This document shows positions 128-23,681 of a DNA stretch of 51,775 nucleotides, one piece after another. Source of the DNA: Escherichia phage vB_EcoP_06. The first letter of the stretch is position 1; each line of letters begins with the position of its first letter. The DNA is taken from sequence record PP532814.1, one strand, 5' to 3'. The position numbers were made by a program, and so were the translations under genes. A model generated the notes under the pieces. That model did not search any database. It saw only the letters and a program-made list of their open reading frames with translations, and was not told the DNA's origin.

Positions 128-575
128 CACTTCAGCTTATAATATTGATGGCGCTTGTGTTCTTGAGAATGCGGCAGGAAATCAGAATCAGTCTGTTTTT
201 GTTGGTGTTGCAGTCCAGCATGGCGGCGTTGATGCTATGGGCAATAAGCTAATTAAGCCGATGGCGACAAGCGGCAAGGCTTACGGCGTTGCAATTCGAT
301 CTCACTTTCAGACAACTTCGTCTGACGGTCGAATGATTTATGAATCTGGAGGCGGAATCAACGTAATGACTGAGGGGCGTGTTTGGATGTTGGCTAAAGA
401 CGCCACCGCGCCAGCGTTCGGCACTACAATCAAGCTGTCTGATGATGGTCAGGTTGATACAGGGTCTGGTACTATCGAAACAAACTGGATCGCAACTGGT
501 GATTTCACCAAGTTTCAAGACTTGAAGCTGGTAGAGGTTCAGGTGCAAAAAGTTCCGGCAGTTTCGGCGGGTTAA
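63..575 (+). CDS. putative head decoration/structural protein, paralogue A (170 aa)
   Basis: RBS GGAGAAATAAAC before ATG; lies between scaffold-like gene and major capsid gene (lambda D-like position); shares a G-x-VW-L ... WI-TG pattern with the next ORF; followed by a rho-independent terminator. Confidence 0.35.
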   Translation: MATIGASYFAVMSRALPGQVSDTSAYNIDGACVLENAAGNQNQSVFVGVAVQHGGVDAMGNKLIKPMATSGKAYGVAIRSHFQTTSSDGRMIYESGGGINVMTEGRVWMLAKDATAPAFGTTIKLSDDGQVDTGSGTIETNWIATGDFTKFQDLKLVEVQVQKVPAVSAG

Positions 576-5533: not shown

Positions 5534-8206
5534 ATGTCAGAACAATACGCAGGCTTGACGCTTGGGGTTGATGTTTCTCAACTCAACAATGCTGTAAAGT
5601 CTTTGCAGCAATTCAAGAAGGCAAACGACGACGCAAAGGGAAGCGTTGAGAGTTTTGTTGATTCAGAGGTTGTTGCAAGACAAAGAGCCAAACAACTGGC
5701 TGAGGAATTGGCAAAGCAGAAGCAAGAATTTAAAGCAATTCAGTCGGCAATAGATCCGACAGCAAGCAAAATGGATAAGTTGCGCCAGGCAGCAACACAG
5801 CTTGATGCGCTTTGGAAAAAAGGAATTGTGCCGGATGATACATTCTTTGAGTTAGGATCAATTCTTGAGACGCAGCAAAACAAACTGATCGCAACTAAAA
5901 AGGCGCTAACTGAAGAAGGCCGCGCGGCGCTTGAGGAAGCAAAAAACAAGGCAAGGGCAGAGGCTGAGGCAAGAAAGTTTATTGCGGCATTGCAGGCGCA
6001 AGCTGACGCAGCGGAAAAAACAAAATCAGAGCTTGTCGAAATGAGAGCCGCACAACTTGGAGTTAGTGCAGAGGCAGCGCCATTTATTGCAAAAATGAAG
6101 GAGCAGGAAAAACAAGCCTCAAAACTTGGCGTTTCTATGGGGCAGTACAAGCAAGCAATGGCGCAATTGCCAATGCAAATCACTGACGTTGTTACTTCTC
6201 TTGCTTCAGGTATGCCAGTATGGATGATCGCAATCCAGCAGGGGGGGCAAATTAAGGACTCATTCGGCGGTGTTGCTAATACGTTTAAAGCGCTAATGAC
6301 ATTTGTCACGCCTTTAAGTGTAGGAATGACGGCGCTGACTGGTGCTCTTGGTTATGCTGCATATAATGCATACAAAGCAAATGCACAATTGAAGGAGATC
6401 ACAAAAACCGTTCAGGAGACAACTGGTCTTTCTGGTGATTTTGCAGAGCGGATCGCAACTGGAATCCAGGCGCTATCTGACAAGACAGGTGAGAGCGCCG
6501 ATAATCTGGCAAAGGCATACATAAGCACTAAGGATGGAGCAACCGAGGCCATACAAAAACTAGTCGATGTTGGGTTTACCTATGACGAAGCAAAGGTAAA
6601 GGTAAACGAATACAAGAATGCATCAAGTTTTGTAAGCCTTAACAATGAAATTGCTGATCACAAAAACAAAGTTCTTGAGCTTGGCGATTCATGGTATGCG
6701 GTCTTAAAAGCAAAACGTGATTACGCTTCACCGTCCGGCGGTCTGTTGGGGAAAGAGCTTGGTTATGTGAATCCAATGCTGCAATTTGCGAAGAACACCT
6801 ATGAGGATATAGGAAAGATCGTAAAAGATGCGAATAAGGATATGGCGGAACGAGCAGCACGCATCGACAGAGAAAACCTTTCCTTAAACAGAGTTCGAGC
6901 GGCGCAAGAGGCTTTAAACAAAGCCATAGAGGATCAGAAGAACGTAGCAAGGACAGCAGACGAAGAGTTGAAAAAACGAGCGGCTGAGAACGTGGAGTTC
7001 AGGCGAAAAGAGCTTGAAGAGGCGAAGAAGGCGCAGCAGCAAAAGGAAAAAGTTGGTGGAGTTGTAAAAGCACCAACAGAGCAGCTTGATAAGGAGCTAT
7101 ATGTTCTCAAGGCGCAACTTGAAACGCTGAAAGAGCACCGAACTGTAAATGATGTTATTTCACGCCAGAGGCAATCTTTGTGGAGCATTGAAAAGCAGAT
7201 CCAGATCCTTGAGGAAGCGCAAAGTAAACGCAAGCTGACAAAAGCGGAACAGGCGTTACTAAACGAGCAAAAAGCAGTTATTGCTATGGCAAAAGAAAAG
7301 GCAGAGATAGGCGATCAGATTGTTTTGCAACAGAGAAAGAACAAGCAATACCAGGAAGGGCTTAAATTCATTCAGCAAACATCAGATGCTATTGACGCTA
7401 TGAACTTGCGACAGTCTGGAGCTACAGATCTGCAAATCCAGCGAGAGCTTGAGTTGAAGAAGTTGCGAACTGATTATGTTGCTGGCGGCGGTAGTATCGA
7501 CGATGAAATTTATCAGCAGATGGAAGCAAAGCTGAAGGAGTATTACGCCACTGAGGATCAGCTTAGAAATAACTGGATTGCAGGAGCAAAAAACGCATGG
7601 GAGGTTTACGGACAAGATGCAATGGATATGTACGGCAACGTGCAAGATATTGCAAGCGAGGCGCTCAACGGTCTAACCAACCAAATGGCTACATTCCTTG
7701 CAACAGGAAAGGCAAACTTTAAGAGCTTCGCAACGTCAATCATCCAAATGATTATCCAGATGATCACGAAGATGGTTATCTTTAATGCCATATCTGGTGC
7801 GATTGGAGGTGACACTTGGACGATTGGAAGCCTTCTTAAAAATGTTGGATTTGCAACTGGTGGATACACTGGCGACGGCGGGAAGTATGAGCCAGCAGGT
7901 GTTGTCCATAAAGGCGAGTTTGTCATGACGAAGGAGGCAACGAAGCGGATCGGAGTTGGAAATCTTTACAAAATGATGCGCGGTTATGCAAATGGCGGCG
8001 TTGTTGGCGGCACTTCATACACTGGCGGCGGAGTTTCATCTGGAGCAACAAATCTTAATATTGGCGGGATCAGCGTTGATATTAACAACGGAAACGATCC
8101 GAAAGGATTGGAGACTGGCGTAAAAATGATTTTCACTGATATGATTAAGCGTTCCTGTACGCAGGGTGGGGAAGTTTACGAATTTGTTATGTCTAAGCGG
8201 GGGTGA
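5534..8206 (+). CDS. tail tape measure protein
   Basis: 890 aa, long Ala/Glu/Lys/Gln-rich coiled-coil N-terminal part, hydrophobic central segment, Gly-rich C-terminus; position upstream of gpM/L/K/I/J homologues. Confidence 0.85.
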
Positions 8207-19492: not shown

Positions 19493-19520
19493 CAACAAAA
19501 AAGCGCAGCCGTAGCCGCGC
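19493..19520 (-). terminator. rho-independent terminator after lateral tail fibre gene
   Basis: On minus strand AGCGCGGC-TACG-GCTGCGCT followed by TTTTTTG. Confidence 0.65.
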
Positions 19521-19529
19521 TTTCAGGGT

Positions 19530-22121
19530 TTATTGCTTAAACGCTTTAATTAGCGTTTTTAGTTCTTCCATTTCTGCTTTCATCGCCTCCATTTCAGTGC
19601 TCACATACTTAAACGCGCAAGCCATATCAGCAAACATAACGTTAATATCAAGAGCTAGCGTGTCGTCTTTGCGATCTGTTTCAATCTGGTATGCAATGTA
19701 CTCCTCGCCGTTTTCGTCAACCCCGATCACATCCTCAAATACAGGTGAGCCAGGGACTAGCTTAACGTATTGACTATCAACCTTCATCAAGTCTTGAGCT
19801 ATTAAGCCAAAGCGCTGTGTTTCCTGCCCTTTGTACTTAAACATTGCTGGCAACCACTGCATAACACGATCATAGCTTTCCTTTCCATCGGTGTACTTGA
19901 TATCGTACTTAATATCGCGATCCGACGATGGGTTTTTTGCAAAGTCATAGTTTCCACCCCACGGATCATTGCCCCAGGTGTAAATCCCACCCATATGATC
20001 AAAGTTATACGCCCTGTGAAATCTTCCACCACCATTAAGTTTTAGCGCAACGGCAGGCCACGCAGCATTGCCATTTGATATGACACCAAGACCTGTGCGC
20101 ATATGATAACCACCAGTTGACACAGAGCCACCGGAGACAATAGGACTCCAGCCAGCATCATTGTTTGGCACACTGGTAGCAGTAAAAGGAGCGCCCATAT
20201 GATCCCATTCAAGACCCCACGTACCTTGTATACACTGACCATTAAAACCACGCTCGGCAGACATGTAACCGCCGTATTCCGGCACAAAATTAAACATCTT
20301 TGCTGTGCCAGCGCCATTATTAACAACCACTCTTGCGCTTCGCAGGTCTGCACCTCCTCCGCGAATACCCCCTATCTGCCAATATCCGTTATACCAGTTA
20401 CCTTGTAATGTGTTAACCCATCCGTTAGCGCCACCATCACCAGTAATGTTTTCCAACCAAATATCCTTGTTTCCACCTTCGCTTGTTCCAACACCATTTC
20501 GCATTCCCTGCTTTGCAGTAATCCACCCCCCAGAGTAAAGGCCACCACCAGCAATCTCAACATGGTTAAGGCCGGACAATCTTGCATTTTCATCAAATTG
20601 CATGAATGCGTGTTTGTTACCTTCATTATTCGCAGTGTGGAATGTTGTTTTCCATAGCCCAGATTGCTTTTCTGCATATACGCGAGAATAACCGCGAGTA
20701 ACCCCATCACCACCCTTTGCGTGTAAATTTAAGATTCCGCTAACTTCAGCAGCGCCAGCATATTGATGAACAAGATCCAGATCTAAAAATCTAGGGGTTT
20801 GTCGCTCACCCAATCCAAGACTATCTCTAAACAAAAGAACATCACGGATAACATAATCATTGATCGCATAGAATCCAGTGTTAATTAAGCCCATTGATCT
20901 TACTTCCGTGCATTCAGCGGCTGGATCTGTTGCGCCAAACTTAAACACTGTTGCGTTTTCCACTAAACCATCCGGCGCATAATCTGATGTTGGGACAATA
21001 ACATCAACATTGCTTTCACAGTGAATGTTCAAAGGGAATGATCCGCCGCGAACATAAACAGCAAATGCCTTTGTCGTTGCTTTCGCTGGCATCAAGATAG
21101 AATCCATCGTTCTTTCATCTTTCTGATAGACTGTGAAATTCCCATAAACGCTATCAATGCCGTCATTCCATCCAGAAGTGCGAGCATAACCAGCGAATGA
21201 CGCTGAGTTGTAAGGGTAATCTCCAGTTCTATTAGAAGTTGAGATCTGGAAGAAAACGCCCAATCGTTCCATATCGCCAGCGTTCTTTTCCTGGAAGATT
21301 ACAGGGTAATATTTTTCATCCTCCGCACCAGCCGGAGCGTTTACAGTTCTTTCGTATTTCCAGCCCTGATAACCTATAACCGCCTGATGCGCTCTATCAG
21401 CTTCATTTTCGGCGCGGTTTGCTTGCTGCAATGCGTTTGCTGAATGGTTAGCAGCCTGATCACGCGCACTTTCAGCGCTATTCTTAGCATTTACAGCCTG
21501 ATCTTTAAGTGCTGATGTGTCGCTCTTGATCTGGTTCATTTCTGCAACTGCTTGATCTTTAGTTTGGTTTACAGCCAAAACACCTTGATCGCGTGCAGAG
21601 TTAATTTCTGTTAACGCTGAATCTTTAATCTGTTGCGTTTGCTGCATGTAGCCTTTTGCTGATTCAGCATGATTGAAAGATTGACCAGCCCATGATTGCG
21701 CGTTTTGCTCGCTTTGCGCGGCGGCGGCGGCGGCATTTCTCACAGTTTCATCGCGTAAATCAATCAGCTTTTGCAGATCAAAGTTTTTGAAAAACTCGAT
21801 CGCTTCCTCGATCTGCGTTTCTTTGCTTTGGTAGTAGCGCAGCGTTTCAGCAACATCTTGCGCCAGGCCGTCAACAGTTATTGAGTCATGCAGCAAAATA
21901 ATGTAGTTGCTTCTCCCAATTTCAGCGCCGCCAGTTGTGATGGCGCGGATTTGCGTATCGCTGATAACTTCACTGATCACAGCCGCTTGAAAAGGCGCAT
22001 CAATAAAAAAGATTGTTGCACCAGGGCGGATTAATGAAAGTTGCTCTCGCCATTTCGTGTCGTATCCAGTGATATAACCTTGAGCGTCCATTGACGCTTG
22101 TCCGGTTCTGTAAATTGCCAT
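19530..22121 (-). CDS. lateral tail fibre with C-terminal intramolecular chaperone (peptidase S74-like) domain
   Basis: 863 aa from RBS-supported ATG (AGGAGAAAACGC); N-terminal coiled coil; Gly-rich beta region; C-terminal segment resembling the self-cleaving chaperone domain of T5 pb1/endosialidase-type fibres as I recall it; strong terminator after stop. Confidence 0.7.
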   Translation of the reverse strand: MAIYRTGQASMDAQGYITGYDTKWREQLSLIRPGATIFFIDAPFQAAVISEVISDTQIRAITTGGAEIGRSNYIILLHDSITVDGLAQDVAETLRYYQSKETQIEEAIEFFKNFDLQKLIDLRDETVRNAAAAAAQSEQNAQSWAGQSFNHAESAKGYMQQTQQIKDSALTEINSARDQGVLAVNQTKDQAVAEMNQIKSDTSALKDQAVNAKNSAESARDQAANHSANALQQANRAENEADRAHQAVIGYQGWKYERTVNAPAGAEDEKYYPVIFQEKNAGDMERLGVFFQISTSNRTGDYPYNSASFAGYARTSGWNDGIDSVYGNFTVYQKDERTMDSILMPAKATTKAFAVYVRGGSFPLNIHCESNVDVIVPTSDYAPDGLVENATVFKFGATDPAAECTEVRSMGLINTGFYAINDYVIRDVLLFRDSLGLGERQTPRFLDLDLVHQYAGAAEVSGILNLHAKGGDGVTRGYSRVYAEKQSGLWKTTFHTANNEGNKHAFMQFDENARLSGLNHVEIAGGGLYSGGWITAKQGMRNGVGTSEGGNKDIWLENITGDGGANGWVNTLQGNWYNGYWQIGGIRGGGADLRSARVVVNNGAGTAKMFNFVPEYGGYMSAERGFNGQCIQGTWGLEWDHMGAPFTATSVPNNDAGWSPIVSGGSVSTGGYHMRTGLGVISNGNAAWPAVALKLNGGGRFHRAYNFDHMGGIYTWGNDPWGGNYDFAKNPSSDRDIKYDIKYTDGKESYDRVMQWLPAMFKYKGQETQRFGLIAQDLMKVDSQYVKLVPGSPVFEDVIGVDENGEEYIAYQIETDRKDDTLALDINVMFADMACAFKYVSTEMEAMKAEMEELKTLIKAFKQ

Positions 22122-22179
22122 GCGTTTTCTCCTATGTTGCATGTTAATGTCAATGCAGATAATAGCATTTGCTAAGGCC

Positions 22180-22202
22180 AAAAAAAACCCCGCATTGCGG
22201 GG
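22180..22202 (-). terminator. rho-independent terminator after primase gene
   Basis: On minus strand CCCCGCA-ATG-CGGGG followed by TTTTTTTT. Confidence 0.7.
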
Positions 22203-22219
22203 TAAAGTAGCAGTGACAT

Positions 22220-23152
22220 TTAGAGAATTGATTCAGGTTTGAAAACCTTCCTCTCTATCCCTTGCTTGTAATTATCATTAATCGGCATCATAATTTCAAG
22301 CCCTCTTTCCTCGGCAGCAATGATCGCGTCACGATCTGTGCTCTTACAGACAACTCGCATTCTTCTGTTGCCTTTGTACCTGTAAGCTACAATCTCAATG
22401 TTAGTTGCATCAAAGCAGGCCCAAACCTCCTGACCAGTTGCAAGGTGAATATGTTGCGCATCAATCCAGTCAACGCAAAGATAGATCGTCTTATCTGTGC
22501 TACCTGTTTTAACAACAGATCCGCGCGTGTAGTCGCGAGCTAAAAACCAATCCTTTCCATCCTCATCAATGAAAAGCACGTTACACATTTCATCATCAAT
22601 TTCATCTGAATGTACCAGGTAACATGGCAACGCGTGAATGTATCGACCATCTTTAACGCCGCATTCATAATAACCATCTTCAGGAGGGTATATTCCTTCA
22701 TATGTGCTTAACGGCGTGCGATCAAATTTTAGTGTTTTTGACATAACGCGCTCGCAGCATTCATGGCTTGCCTGCTTCCCAAACGAATAACCAGAATCAC
22801 GAGATACTCGCTTATTTGCCTTGATCCTATAGTCCTGCGGAACTTTTCCAAGAAATCGGCCCAAAATATTTATCACTTCGCTGTAAGGTTCTCCGGTTAG
22901 CTTCATGATCCAACCAATTCCGGTATCATTACCGCACACGTTGCAGATCGCACCGCCATCGCCTTTTTTATCGCCAAGTTTATCCGTCCATCTGAAGCGA
23001 TCCTTTCCGCCGCAGTGGGGGCAAGATTGATGCTTGCCGTTAAAAACTTCATTTGGAAGACCGCAAATACTTTGTAGCGCCTCACGCCACAATCCTTGCA
23101 TATATGGGAGAACATCTTCTTTTTGATAAACCATAAAGTTTTCGTTATTCAT
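22220..23152 (-). CDS. DNA primase (zinc-binding, putative TOPRIM)
   Basis: Zn-ribbon motif CPHCGGKDRF ... CNVCG near N-terminus; RBS GAGGTG before ATG at 23152; terminator after stop. Confidence 0.55.
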   Translation of the reverse strand: MNNENFMVYQKEDVLPYMQGLWREALQSICGLPNEVFNGKHQSCPHCGGKDRFRWTDKLGDKKGDGGAICNVCGNDTGIGWIMKLTGEPYSEVINILGRFLGKVPQDYRIKANKRVSRDSGYSFGKQASHECCERVMSKTLKFDRTPLSTYEGIYPPEDGYYECGVKDGRYIHALPCYLVHSDEIDDEMCNVLFIDEDGKDWFLARDYTRGSVVKTGSTDKTIYLCVDWIDAQHIHLATGQEVWACFDATNIEIVAYRYKGNRRMRVVCKSTDRDAIIAAEERGLEIMMPINDNYKQGIERKVFKPESIL

Positions 23153-23207
23153 ATACACCTCAAACAAAAAAGCCTGACAGATGATAACATCATGCCAGGC
23201 ATTGTTT

Positions 23208-23681
23208 TTAGCAATTAGTGCTTTCAGGTTTATACAGGAATCCGCCAGGTTCATAATCTGACATTCTTACCACTCGCAACATTTCACGCTTATCACATCT
23301 CTTTGTGAGCGGTTTTCCATTGGAATCAAATCGCAGATCTGGACGGCAGAATGAAGCGCGATAGCCTTGACAGCCATACTTTTTGTAATCGTTATGCACC
23401 TTTTGAGCGCCAGCGGCTGAAATCATACCGCGAACGCGCCACTGATTTACAGTTTGCTGGCTAACGTTAAGACGCTTTGCCATTGCTGACACGCTGCCGT
23501 AATACTCAATAAGAATGTCAAGCCGTGCTTTTAGTCCGGCGCGCACTTCATCTTTTAAAACATAGTATCCTGTAGGGCGCTTGCGCTTTTTCTTATCTTT
23601 ACCCCGTCGAGTTCCGTTATTGCCATTGATTGTGCGTTTGTCAATCTTACCAGTTGATACTGCGATTCGCTGTTCTTTCAT
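23208..23681 (-). CDS. HTH DNA-binding protein (Cro/YdaS-like), putative transcriptional regulator
   Basis: Helix-turn-helix GSVSAMAKRLNVSQQTVNQW; highly basic N-terminal region; divergent from helicase promoter. Confidence 0.5.
   Translation of the reverse strand: MKEQRIAVSTGKIDKRTINGNNGTRRGKDKKKRKRPTGYYVLKDEVRAGLKARLDILIEYYGSVSAMAKRLNVSQQTVNQWRVRGMISAAGAQKVHNDYKKYGCQGYRASFCRPDLRFDSNGKPLTKRCDKREMLRVVRMSDYEPGGFLYKPESTNC

What the first reader, a model, noticed from the sequence alone, without database searches (positions are those of the whole stretch)
19530..22121. Lateral tail fibre with a C-terminal self-cleaving chaperone-like domain
The C-terminal about 130 residues (SDRDIKYDIKYTDGKESYDRVMQWLP ... 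through the end) resemble, as I recall, the intramolecular chaperone/peptidase S74 domains of T5 pb1 and endosialidase fibres. Preceded by a Gly-rich beta region and an N-terminal coiled coil, this is likely the glycan- or LPS-binding side fibre that determines primary adsorption.
Basis: partly seen in the sequence, partly recalled or inferred. Interest (0 to 1): 0.35.

Follow-up and report, generated by a model that had tools for sequence, protein, structure and literature searches.

The report
T1-like phage side tail fibre
This gene encodes the side tail fibre of a T1-like coliphage, ending in a well-known self-cleaving folding-helper domain; it is an ordinary, already described kind of phage host-recognition protein whose exact sugar target is unknown.

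Summary
Observation confirmed, interpretation supported, novelty low. Window 19530-22121 (minus strand) is one intact 863-aa gene. It has a strong ribosome-binding site and a terminator on each side. It lies between the ssb/recombination genes and the primase of a Hanrivervirus-like Drexlerviridae (T1-like) genome that also encodes a separate J-type central fibre.

The last 131 residues (S733 to Q863) match Pfam Peptidase_S74 above the curated cut-off (E 4e-8). They start with the Ser-x4-Lys dyad motif S733-DRDI-K738 and match the chaperone domain of a solved L-shaped tail fibre (8HQZ; profile E 7e-9). An AlphaFold model of residues 426-863 has the T5 pb1 tip plus chaperone (4UW8) as its best PDB match.

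Upstream lie:
- a conserved Drexlerviridae N-terminal anchor (1-120);
- a Pro-free helical rod (121-248);
- a compact beta-sandwich with no solved counterpart (249-430);
- a 19% Gly all-beta tip (431-732).

Predicted processing is 94.8 kDa to 79.6 + 15.2 kDa.

This architecture has been published for Drexlerviridae fibres, and the exact protein is already in public databases. Glycan (O-antigen) binding is inferred, not shown.

The parts
19530..22121 (-). Lateral tail fibre gene, 863 aa plus stop (precursor 94.8 kDa)
   Evidence: ORF list. Start codon and ribosome-binding site. PHROG tail-fibre families, best E 2e-145. 82-85% identical to fibres of phages FritzSarasin (annotated lateral tail fiber protein) and NBSal001 (region unannotated). 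Masses.
22129..22133 (-). Ribosome-binding site AGGAG, 7 nt before the ATG
   Evidence: Upstream sequence read directly.
22187..22203 (-). Intrinsic terminator of the upstream primase gene. The mechanical TTG start at 22181 falls in its T-run, so it is not the real start.
   Evidence: Terminator scan: 7-bp stem with 6 GC pairs, followed by TTTTTTT. Sequence.
21762..22121 (-). Residues 1-120: conserved N-terminal domain, presumed virion-attachment (anchor) domain of Drexlerviridae side fibres and spikes
   Evidence: phmmer E 7e-47 to the first ~190 residues of Klebsiella Webervirus capsule depolymerases 7vyv/7vz3/7lzj. 1-117 almost identical to JakobBernoulli, 92-100% to egaa/vojen/FritzSarasin. 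Hundreds of Klebsiella/Escherichia phage hits cover only residues 1-125. The attachment role is proposed in PMC8594841, not shown.
21378..21761 (-). Residues 121-248: Ala/Gln/Asn-rich alpha-helical rod (probable trimeric coiled coil)
   Evidence: No Pro, 3 Gly in 128 residues. Hydrophobic periodicity at 3.6 residues, z = 6.6 against 500 shuffles. 28% Ala in window 201-250. Weak composition-type match to the Sec2 coiled coil. Variable in length among relatives.
20832..21377 (-). Residues 249-430: compact beta-sandwich 'knob' module, role unknown
19926..20831 (-). Residues 431-732: junction motif FRDSLGLGE, then a Gly-rich all-beta distal tip; presumed receptor-binding domain (T5 pb1-like)
   Evidence: 19% Gly and strands only in the model. 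44% identical to L-shaped tail fibre protein A of T5-like phage EscoHU1, and 57-62% to the fibre at the pb1 position of T5-like phage CitS1. Foldseek top hit is 4uw8. This is the least conserved stretch against the closest alleles, 62-78% over residues 521-640.
19533..19925 (-). Residues 733-863: intramolecular chaperone / Peptidase_S74 domain (15.2 kDa), predicted to be cut off between S732 and S733
   Evidence: Pfam PF13884 at residues 733-786, E 4.1e-8, above the curated cut-off. 8hqz_d E 3e-4 with the single sequence, 6.7e-9 with the profile. Model shows a mixed alpha/beta part (735-789), a long beta-hairpin (793-817) and a C-terminal helix (826-862) with heptad periodicity z = 4.5. This is the order described for the T5 chaperone (PMC4690869).
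19908..19925 (-). S733-D-R-D-I-K738: predicted catalytic Ser/Lys dyad, with the scissile bond just before S733
   Evidence: Motif position. D734 and K738 invariant in 36 homologues; Ser in 30 and Cys in 6. Same Ser-to-Lys spacing as T5 Ser1264/Lys1269, with cleavage at Thr1263-Ser1264 (PMC4690869). Aligned with S959/K964 of 8hqz_d.
19497..19520 (-). Intrinsic terminator 10 nt after the stop codon (GCGCGGC-UACG-GCUGCGC-UUUUUU)
   Evidence: Sequence. RNAfold hairpin of -19.2 kcal/mol followed by U6. The consensus scan did not list it.

Best explanation
The gene encodes the lateral (side) tail fibre of a T1-like siphovirus (Drexlerviridae, Tempevirinae, close to Hanrivervirus).

Three copies assemble into a fibre with five parts:
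- an N-terminal domain (1-120) that attaches the fibre to the tail;
- a helical rod (121-248);
- a beta-sandwich knob (249-430);
- a Gly-rich, intertwined beta tip of the T5 pb1 type (431-732);
- a C-terminal intramolecular chaperone (733-863).

The chaperone trimerises first through its C-terminal coiled coil and beta-hairpins and templates the folding of the tip. Once the tip is correctly folded, Ser733, activated by Lys738, attacks the Ser732-Ser733 peptide bond. The 15-kDa chaperone then leaves and a 79.6-kDa mature fibre remains on the virion. Release probably uncovers the distal binding surface.

The mature tip binds reversibly to a surface polysaccharide of the host, most likely an O-antigen type. 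This speeds up or permits adsorption on smooth strains. Irreversible binding and DNA ejection depend on the separate J-type central fibre and its partner proteins.

What is shown here: the gene, the domain boundaries, S74 family membership by sequence, the dyad motif, the T5-like predicted fold, the synteny and the mosaic relationships. What is inferred: trimer formation, actual cleavage, the exact scissile bond, glycan binding and the accessory role.
For: - Gene structure.
- S74 domain above the Pfam cut-off.
- Match to the chaperone of solved fibre 8hqz_d.
- Dyad motif conserved.
- Fold of residues 426-863 best matched by T5 pb1 plus chaperone (4uw8), E 2.6e-4, probability 0.99-1.00.
- Tip 44-62% identical to L-shaped fibres of T5-like phages EscoHU1 and CitS1, which lie next to the collar protein for L-shaped fibre attachment.
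- N-terminal domain shared by Drexlerviridae fibres and Webervirus depolymerases.
- Separate central fibre J at 10771-14196.
- Same gene position in FritzSarasin, egaa, vojen, JakobBernoulli and TLS.
- TLS Gp55 also has an S-x4-K motif (SDVRIK). The authors tie it to a 78-kDa virion protein and find an HHpred relationship to 4UW8: PMC11447400.
- Mechanism of cleavage, and masking of the binding site by the chaperone in T5: PMC4690869.
- Same architecture published for a Drexlerviridae fibre: PMC11990801.
- O-antigen use by Drexlerviridae fibres with this domain: PMC12090712.
Against: - No experiment on this protein exists, so cleavage, trimer state and ligand are all inferred.
- Sequence searches did not reach T5 pb1 or the K1F endosialidase chaperone directly; only 8hqz_d was found.
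- The fold match to 4uw8 has low TM-scores (0.21-0.24). This is as expected for a monomer model of an intertwined trimer, but it is still weak geometry.
- The cleavage-site loop is modelled with pLDDT below 50 (residues 729-740).
- The neighbouring-chain Arg/Asp 'folding sensor' described for T5 could not be located.
- PMC8594841 notes that O-antigen binding by Drexlerviridae lateral fibres has never been directly demonstrated. Phages carrying the closest alleles grow on O-antigen-free K-12, so the fibre is dispensable there.
Confidence: 0.85

Rival explanations
1. The fibre tip binds a protein receptor or a conserved LPS-core/ECA structure rather than a variable O-antigen. On this view it is a general adhesin and not a serotype-specific one.
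For: Phages carrying the closest alleles were isolated on E. coli K-12, which lacks O-antigen (FritzSarasin, tonnikala, egaa), and on Salmonella. Some Drexlerviridae need an intact LPS core (PMC8594841). No ligand can be read from the sequence, and the tip gives no hit to any carbohydrate-binding Pfam family.
Against: The tip is the most variable part among close alleles (62-78% over residues 521-640). The locus is hypervariable across the family, which is the pattern expected for a serotype-specific ligand. The solved and genetic precedents with this tip-plus-chaperone architecture bind O-antigens: T5 pb1 (PMC4690869) and CRES7/9 gp28 (PMC12090712).
Confidence: 0.15
2. The S74-like domain is retained uncleaved as a permanent C-terminal cap, or is processed only partly. 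The virion would then carry the full-length 95-kDa protein.
For: No cleavage data exist for this protein. The Pfam match covers only the first 54 residues of the domain. The cleavage loop is poorly modelled.
Against: The Ser and Lys of the dyad are present at the canonical spacing, and Asp734/Lys738 are invariant in 36 homologues. In T5 the uncleaved form cannot compete for the receptor (PMC4690869), so retention would probably cost function.
Confidence: 0.06
3. The protein is an enzymatic tailspike (polysaccharide depolymerase), like the Klebsiella Webervirus proteins that share its N-terminus.
For: Residues 1-187 match depolymerases 7vyv/7vz3/7lzj at E 1e-46.
Against: The similarity stops at residue ~187. 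There is no beta-helix, pectate-lyase or hydrolase family hit anywhere. Residues 248-732 find nothing among PDB sequences. The distal part is T5-fibre-like, and the mid domain gives only weak generic beta-sandwich matches.
Confidence: 0.03

Closest known systems
Lateral tail fibres of Drexlerviridae (FritzSarasin Bas04 gp30, NBSal001, egaa gp27, JakobBernoulli Bas07 Gp36, TLS Gp55)
   Same: - Same genome position and orientation.
- Same N-terminal domain, up to ~99% identical over residues 1-117 with JakobBernoulli.
- Same overall plan of rod, T5-like tip and C-terminal chaperone, as published for JakobBernoulli in PMC11990801.
- 82-85% identity over nearly the full length with FritzSarasin and NBSal001.
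   Different: - The allele is a mosaic. The backbone genome is 94-96% identical to egaa/vojen, but the fibre is closest to alleles from Warwickvirus and Tlsvirus phages.
- egaa lacks part of the rod, and vojen and JakobBernoulli have unrelated middle or distal parts.
- The last ~23 residues resemble neither of these; they match metagenomic relatives P0002/P0003.
- JakobBernoulli's inferred use of the O16 O-antigen (suggested in PMC8594841) therefore cannot be transferred to this allele.
L-shaped tail fibre of T5-like phages (T5 pb1, PDB 4UW7/4UW8; DT57C-type LtfA, PDB 8HQZ; EscoHU1 LtfA; CitS1 gp155)
   Same: - C-terminal S74 chaperone with a Ser-x4-Lys dyad.
- Gly-rich beta tip.
- Fold-level best match to 4uw8.
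- Sequence match of the chaperone to 8hqz_d.
- 44% identity (EscoHU1) and 57-62% identity (CitS1) over the distal 430-740 residues.
   Different: - The N-terminus is different (Drexlerviridae anchor instead of the T5 collar-binding part) and the protein is shorter (863 against 1020-1396 aa).
- T5 pb1 itself is not detectable by sequence.
- The polymannose O8/O9 specificity of T5 cannot be assumed here.
Endosialidase / Peptidase S74 intramolecular chaperone domains (Pfam PF13884; K1F endoNF type)
   Same: Family-level match above the curated threshold, C-terminal position, and a Ser/Lys motif at the start of the domain.
   Different: The passenger domain is a fibre tip, not a sialidase beta-propeller or triple beta-helix. 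No direct sequence hit to solved endosialidase chains was found.
Cronobacter Drexlerviridae phages CRES7/CRES9 tail fibre gp28
   Same: A Drexlerviridae fibre with an intramolecular chaperone auto-processing domain. O-antigen (waaL) dependence was shown experimentally, and two tip residues switch serotype range (PMC12090712).
   Different: The host genus is different, and sequence similarity to this protein was not measured here. In those phages the O-antigen is required for infection, whereas relatives of this phage plate on rough K-12.

Membership tests
Peptidase S74 / intramolecular chaperone auto-processing domain (Pfam PF13884) | Profile match above the family's curated gathering score | tested here: met
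   33.8 bits against a cut-off of 22, E 4.1e-8, residues 733-786 on profile positions 1-57 of 58. All 120 listed homologues of the C-terminal half carry PF13884.
Peptidase S74 / intramolecular chaperone auto-processing domain (Pfam PF13884) | Catalytic Ser and Lys five residues apart at the start of the domain (T5 Ser1264/Lys1269) | tested here: met
   S733 and K738 are in SDRDIK. K738 and D734 are invariant in 36 homologues; the nucleophile is Ser in 30 and Cys in 6. Reference residues come from PMC4690869.
Peptidase S74 / intramolecular chaperone auto-processing domain (Pfam PF13884) | Located at the extreme C-terminus of a trimeric fibre or spike protein, directly after the receptor-binding part | tested here: met
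   The domain is the last 131 of 863 residues and follows the Gly-rich beta tip. Trimer state is inferred only.
Peptidase S74 / intramolecular chaperone auto-processing domain (Pfam PF13884) | Fold: mixed alpha/beta part, long beta-hairpin 'tentacle', C-terminal trimeric coiled-coil helix | tested here: met
   Predicted secondary-structure order: helices 735-740, 747-754 and 775-781, short strands, hairpin 793-801/807-817, helix 826-862. The helix has heptad periodicity z = 4.5. The best PDB fold match is 4uw8. This is a monomer prediction, not a solved structure.
Peptidase S74 / intramolecular chaperone auto-processing domain (Pfam PF13884) | Autoproteolytic release of the domain after folding | not testable with these tools
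   Needs virion mass spectrometry or expression of wild type against S733A.
Peptidase S74 / intramolecular chaperone auto-processing domain (Pfam PF13884) | Folding-sensor residues from a neighbouring chain (T5 Arg1250/Asp1239) completing the active site | tested here: inconclusive
   A conserved H702-R703 and several Asp residues lie 14-31 residues before S733. Without a trimer model they cannot be assigned.
Drexlerviridae lateral tail fibre | Conserved far N-terminal domain shared across the family | tested here: met
   Residues 1-120 are 92-100% identical to egaa, vojen and FritzSarasin and nearly identical to JakobBernoulli. Hundreds of Drexlerviridae records match only residues 1-125.
Drexlerviridae lateral tail fibre | Gene lies between ssb/recombination genes and the primase, on the opposite strand from the tail module, in a genome with a separate J-type central fibre | tested here: met
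   Neighbours in the window: Erf-like 17359-18015, ssb 18060-18557, primase 22220-23254, J 10771-14196. The layout is the same in five annotated relatives.
Drexlerviridae lateral tail fibre | Present on the virion as side fibres | not testable with these tools
   Only indirect: PMC11447400 ties syntenic TLS Gp55 to a 78-kDa virion protein band.
T5 pb1-type receptor-binding tip | Fold similarity to the pb1 970-1263 'bullet' domain | tested here: inconclusive
   The Foldseek alignment to 4uw8 spans 445-459 columns, including the tip, with probability 0.99-1.00. However, TM is 0.21-0.24 and identity 10%. There is no sequence-level hit to pb1. Sequence homology to fibres of T5-like phages EscoHU1 and CitS1 is clear.
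T5 pb1-type receptor-binding tip | Binds O-antigen reversibly | not testable with these tools
   Inference from T5 (PMC4690869) and CRES7/9 (PMC12090712).
Phage capsule depolymerase (Webervirus Depo32 / RAD2 type) | Central right-handed beta-helix catalytic domain | tested here: not met
   Similarity to 7vyv/7lzj ends at residue ~187. No enzyme family hit was found, and residues 248-732 find no PDB sequence.

The most novel reading that the evidence does not exclude
The compact beta-sandwich at residues 249-430 is a module that travels between fibres of T1-like, T5-like, lambda-like, Seuratvirus and rV5-like phages, and it has no solved structural counterpart. It may not be a passive spacer. 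It could be a second, independent ligand-binding site, for example for a conserved glycan, or a docking platform for a branch fibre. In that case this single-gene fibre would have two specificities.
Probability: 0.15. Interest if true: 0.4.

Novelty: new member of a known kind. Interest (0 to 1): 0.12.

Why it matters
It matters little beyond annotation. The gene can be labelled with confidence as 'lateral tail fibre with C-terminal intramolecular chaperone (Peptidase S74)'. The predicted cleavage site (S732|S733) gives correct construct boundaries for expressing the mature tip (residues ~431-732 co-expressed with 733-863).

The mosaic pattern is a clean example of fibre modules being exchanged between phage families at conserved junctions. 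A Hanrivervirus backbone carries an allele closest to Tlsvirus and Warwickvirus phages, and its distal two-thirds are shared with a T5-like Citrobacter phage. This is useful for host-range engineering, but it is already a well-documented phenomenon.

Tried and rejected
- Full-length and tip-only phmmer searches of PDB sequences did not reach T5 pb1 or the K1F endosialidase chaperone. A profile of the chaperone domain found only 8hqz_d, plus a sub-threshold hit to the phage S16 long-fibre fragment 6f45.
- A word-index homology search with the mid domain alone returned nothing, although 91%-identical sequences exist. This is a tool-sensitivity failure, not absence. A profile search then recovered 26 mostly fragmentary prophage fibre proteins.
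- The depolymerase reading suggested by the strong 7vyv/7lzj hits was rejected, because the similarity is confined to the N-terminal ~187 residues.
- The longer TTG-initiated ORF (883 aa) was rejected as the gene start.
- I tried to use TLS Gp55 (74.1 kDa predicted, '78 kDa' band reported) as indirect evidence for or against cleavage. The published masses do not discriminate.
- Tandem-repeat and promoter scans of the gene showed nothing beyond chance.
Full report
**1. The observation.**

Gene and signals:
- The region holds one long ORF on the minus strand. Mechanically it runs 19530..22181 from a TTG.
- That TTG sits inside the T-run of a strong intrinsic terminator that ends the upstream primase gene (22203-22187).
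- The ATG at 22121 has AGGAG seven bases upstream. All relatives begin MAIYR/MALYR.
- Ten bases after the stop codon there is a second terminator hairpin, -19.2 kcal/mol, followed by U6. The gene is thus bracketed by two terminators.

The C-terminal resemblance:
- The quoted peptide SDRDIKYDIKY... begins at residue 733, so the C-terminal stretch is 131 residues.
- Pfam Peptidase_S74 (PF13884, 'chaperone of endosialidase') matches residues 733-786 over essentially the whole profile. The E-value is 4.1e-8 and the score 33.8 bits, against a curated cut-off of 22.
- The same residues match the C-terminus of the solved 'L-shaped tail fiber assembly' chain 8hqz_d at E 3e-4. A 15-sequence profile of this domain reaches E 6.7e-9.
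- The resemblance is therefore real and not chance.

**2. What the window is.**
- The first 25 kb of the window is 94-96% identical, over 83-91% of its length, to Hanrivervirus phages egaa, vojen, SFP17 and JakobBernoulli (Drexlerviridae, Tempevirinae).
- The window encodes a tape-measure protein (5534-8206) and a J-type central tail fibre (10771-14196) in the main tail module.
- The gene under study lies elsewhere, on the opposite strand. On one side are exonuclease VIII, an Erf-like annealing protein and ssb; on the other are primase, a regulator and a helicase.
- This is the place where FritzSarasin, egaa, vojen, JakobBernoulli and TLS carry their annotated lateral tail fibre, or Gp55 in TLS.
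- It is therefore a second, non-central fibre.

**3. Anatomy of the protein.**

(a) Residues 1-120.
- This is a globular domain, 92-100% identical to egaa, vojen and FritzSarasin and nearly identical to JakobBernoulli.
- It is homologous (E 7e-47) to the first ~190 residues of the K2 capsule depolymerases of Klebsiella Webervirus phages, 7vyv/7vz3 (Depo32, PMC10581125) and 7lzj (RAD2, PMC8552709).
- Hundreds of Drexlerviridae records match only this part.
- PMC8594841 proposes that it attaches the fibre to the virion. That role is inferred.

(b) Residues 121-248.
- The segment is rich in Ala, Gln and Asn, has no Pro and only 3 Gly, and shows a hydrophobic period of 3.6 residues (z = 6.6).
- This indicates a long helical rod, probably a trimeric coiled coil. 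Its length differs among relatives.

(c) Residues 249-430.
- AlphaFold2 models this as a compact beta-sandwich with good confidence for a 19-row alignment (pLDDT 81.4, pTM 0.80).
- The module recurs inside fibres of a lambda-like phage, a Seuratvirus, a Vequintavirus, a Tequintavirus and many E. coli prophage side-tail-fibre fragments.

(d) Residues 431-732.
- The segment opens with a FRDSLGLGE junction. A related (A)R-NLGLG motif is seen at fibre domain borders elsewhere, for example in 7z47_D.
- The rest is 19% Gly and all-beta.
- It is 44% identical to L-shaped tail fibre protein A of the T5-like phage EscoHU1.
- Together with the mid domain it is 57-62% identical to the fibre encoded at the pb1 position of the T5-like Citrobacter phage CitS1. 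That gene lies directly after the 'collar tail protein for L-shaped tail fiber attachment'.

(e) Residues 733-863.
- This is the S74 chaperone. In the model it has a mixed alpha/beta part, a long beta-hairpin (793-817) and a C-terminal helix (826-862) with heptad periodicity.
- That is the order of elements described for the T5 chaperone (PMC4690869).

The AlphaFold2 model of residues 426-863 (pLDDT 77) has T5 pb1 970-1396 S1264A (4uw8) as its best PDB match. Chains A and G of that entry are the only two hits at E <= 1e-3, with probability 0.99-1.00. The TM-scores are low (0.21-0.24), as expected for a monomer model of an intertwined trimer.

**4. The catalytic motif.**
- In T5 pb1, Ser1264 activated by Lys1269 cleaves the Thr1263-Ser1264 bond. 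The serine leaves with the chaperone. The uncleaved S1264A protein cannot compete for the receptor, which suggests the chaperone masks the binding site (PMC4690869).
- Here the same spacing occurs at S733 and K738, preceded by S732. Most homologues have Thr at the position of S732, as T5 does.
- Across 36 homologues D734 and K738 are invariant. The nucleophile is Ser in 30 and Cys in 6 prophage proteins.
- 8hqz_d aligns S959/K964 to the same columns. TLS Gp55 has SDVRIK.
- Predicted processing is 94.8 kDa to 79.6 kDa (residues 1-732) plus 15.2 kDa.
- I could not identify the neighbouring-chain Arg/Asp 'folding sensor' without a trimer model.

**5. Mosaicism.**
- The closest alleles in annotated phage records are NBSal001 (Tlsvirus, 85%) and FritzSarasin (Warwickvirus, 82%). 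The backbone relatives egaa (76% distal, part of the rod missing) and vojen (unrelated middle) are further away.
- Identity to the closest alleles is lowest in the tip, 62-78% over residues 521-640 against FritzSarasin and NBSal001.
- The last ~23 residues do not match any of the six fibres compared. They match metagenomic proteins P0002/P0003 almost exactly.
- JakobBernoulli shares the anchor and part of the rod (69% over residues 1-246, nearly identical over 1-117) but has an unrelated tip. Its inferred use of O16 (suggested in PMC8594841) therefore says nothing about this allele.
- The exact 863-aa protein is already in the public collection (NCBI and Logan, on a 51,775-bp contig). It has three near-identical relatives on 50-52 kb contigs.

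**6. Mechanism.**
- The most likely mechanism is the standard one for this class.
- The C-terminal domains of three chains trimerise and template the tip. Correct folding arms the Ser/Lys dyad, the chaperone is released, and the mature fibre then binds a surface polysaccharide reversibly, ahead of irreversible binding by the central fibre.
- The sequence-level and fold-level parts of this account are shown here. Cleavage, trimer state and ligand are inferred from T5 (PMC4690869), from Cronobacter Drexlerviridae phages whose fibre with the same domain confers O-antigen serotype specificity (PMC12090712), and from the BASEL papers (PMC8594841, PMC11990801).
- PMC8594841 states explicitly that O-antigen binding by Drexlerviridae lateral fibres has not been demonstrated directly.

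**7. Rivals.**
- A non-glycan or conserved-glycan ligand remains possible (about 0.15). Phages with the closest alleles grow on rough K-12, and no ligand can be read from the sequence.
- An uncleaved cap is unlikely, given the intact and conserved dyad.
- An enzymatic depolymerase is rejected: the similarity to depolymerases ends at residue ~187, and no catalytic family or beta-helix is detectable.

**8. Novelty and verdict.**
The only correction is that the coiled coil follows a globular anchor domain rather than forming the N-terminus.
- The architecture is published for Drexlerviridae (PMC11990801). The S74 domain is recognised automatically by Pfam in every homologue, and the sequence is already public.
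- This is an uncharacterised allele of a well-known kind of protein.
- The one part without a known counterpart is the mid beta-sandwich. A second binding or docking function there is the most novel reading that the evidence does not exclude, but nothing positive supports it.
- Interest is low.

Noticed in passing
Related proteins P0091-P0113 (Enterobacter and E. coli prophage tail fibres; not in the window): These homologues of the tip plus chaperone have Cys in place of the S74 nucleophile Ser (..QPNCDITLKHDI.. against ..NPSSDRDIKYDI..), while keeping the Lys five residues on. This may be a cysteine-nucleophile variant of the self-cleaving chaperone. I do not know whether it has been described.
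   Followed up: no
window 19275-19361 (-): A 28-aa Gly/Ala-rich ORF (MSDMTLLPTGGMGGEAGAAGLGGAVGGL) with a good ribosome-binding site lies just after the fibre's terminator and just before the 85-aa ORF. A promoter-like site (19434-19407, 10 of 12 matches) lies upstream. Whether it is a gene is unknown.
   Followed up: partly
window 18981-19238 (-): An 85-aa ORF of unknown function (phrog_7239, E 8e-44) is followed by a terminator at about 18972-18992. It matches in length and position the last of four hypothetical genes that egaa and vojen carry downstream of their fibre. The other three (including a 233-aa one) are absent from this window, so the fibre-distal accessory region is variable.
   Followed up: partly
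window 18529-18954 (+): An HNH / endonuclease VII-like ORF (phrog_2340, E 1e-34) overlaps the 3' end of ssb. It is present at 93-94% identity in Shigella phage ESh4 and Escherichia phage morffagbaw, but absent at this position in egaa, vojen and FritzSarasin. It is probably a mobile homing endonuclease.
   Followed up: partly
window 20832-21377 (-), fibre residues 249-430: This beta-sandwich module is shared by fibres of five different phage groups and many E. coli prophages. It has a confident predicted fold and no convincing solved counterpart.
   Followed up: yes
window 14225-14851 (-): A 208-aa 'membrane associated protein' (phrog_425, moron / host-takeover category, E 8e-50) is encoded on the opposite strand directly after the central fibre J gene, in a 2-kb stretch of low G+C (0.37 against about 0.44). 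It could be a receptor-blocking or superinfection-exclusion gene; this was not examined.
   Followed up: no
Phage records MG0656xx labelled 'Campylobacter phage' (e.g. E6, A143, A134): About 20-38 records labelled as Campylobacter jejuni phages are 90-94% identical to this coliphage's primase / fibre N-terminus and ssb regions, and have T1-like genome sizes. The host label of these records looks doubtful.
   Followed up: no
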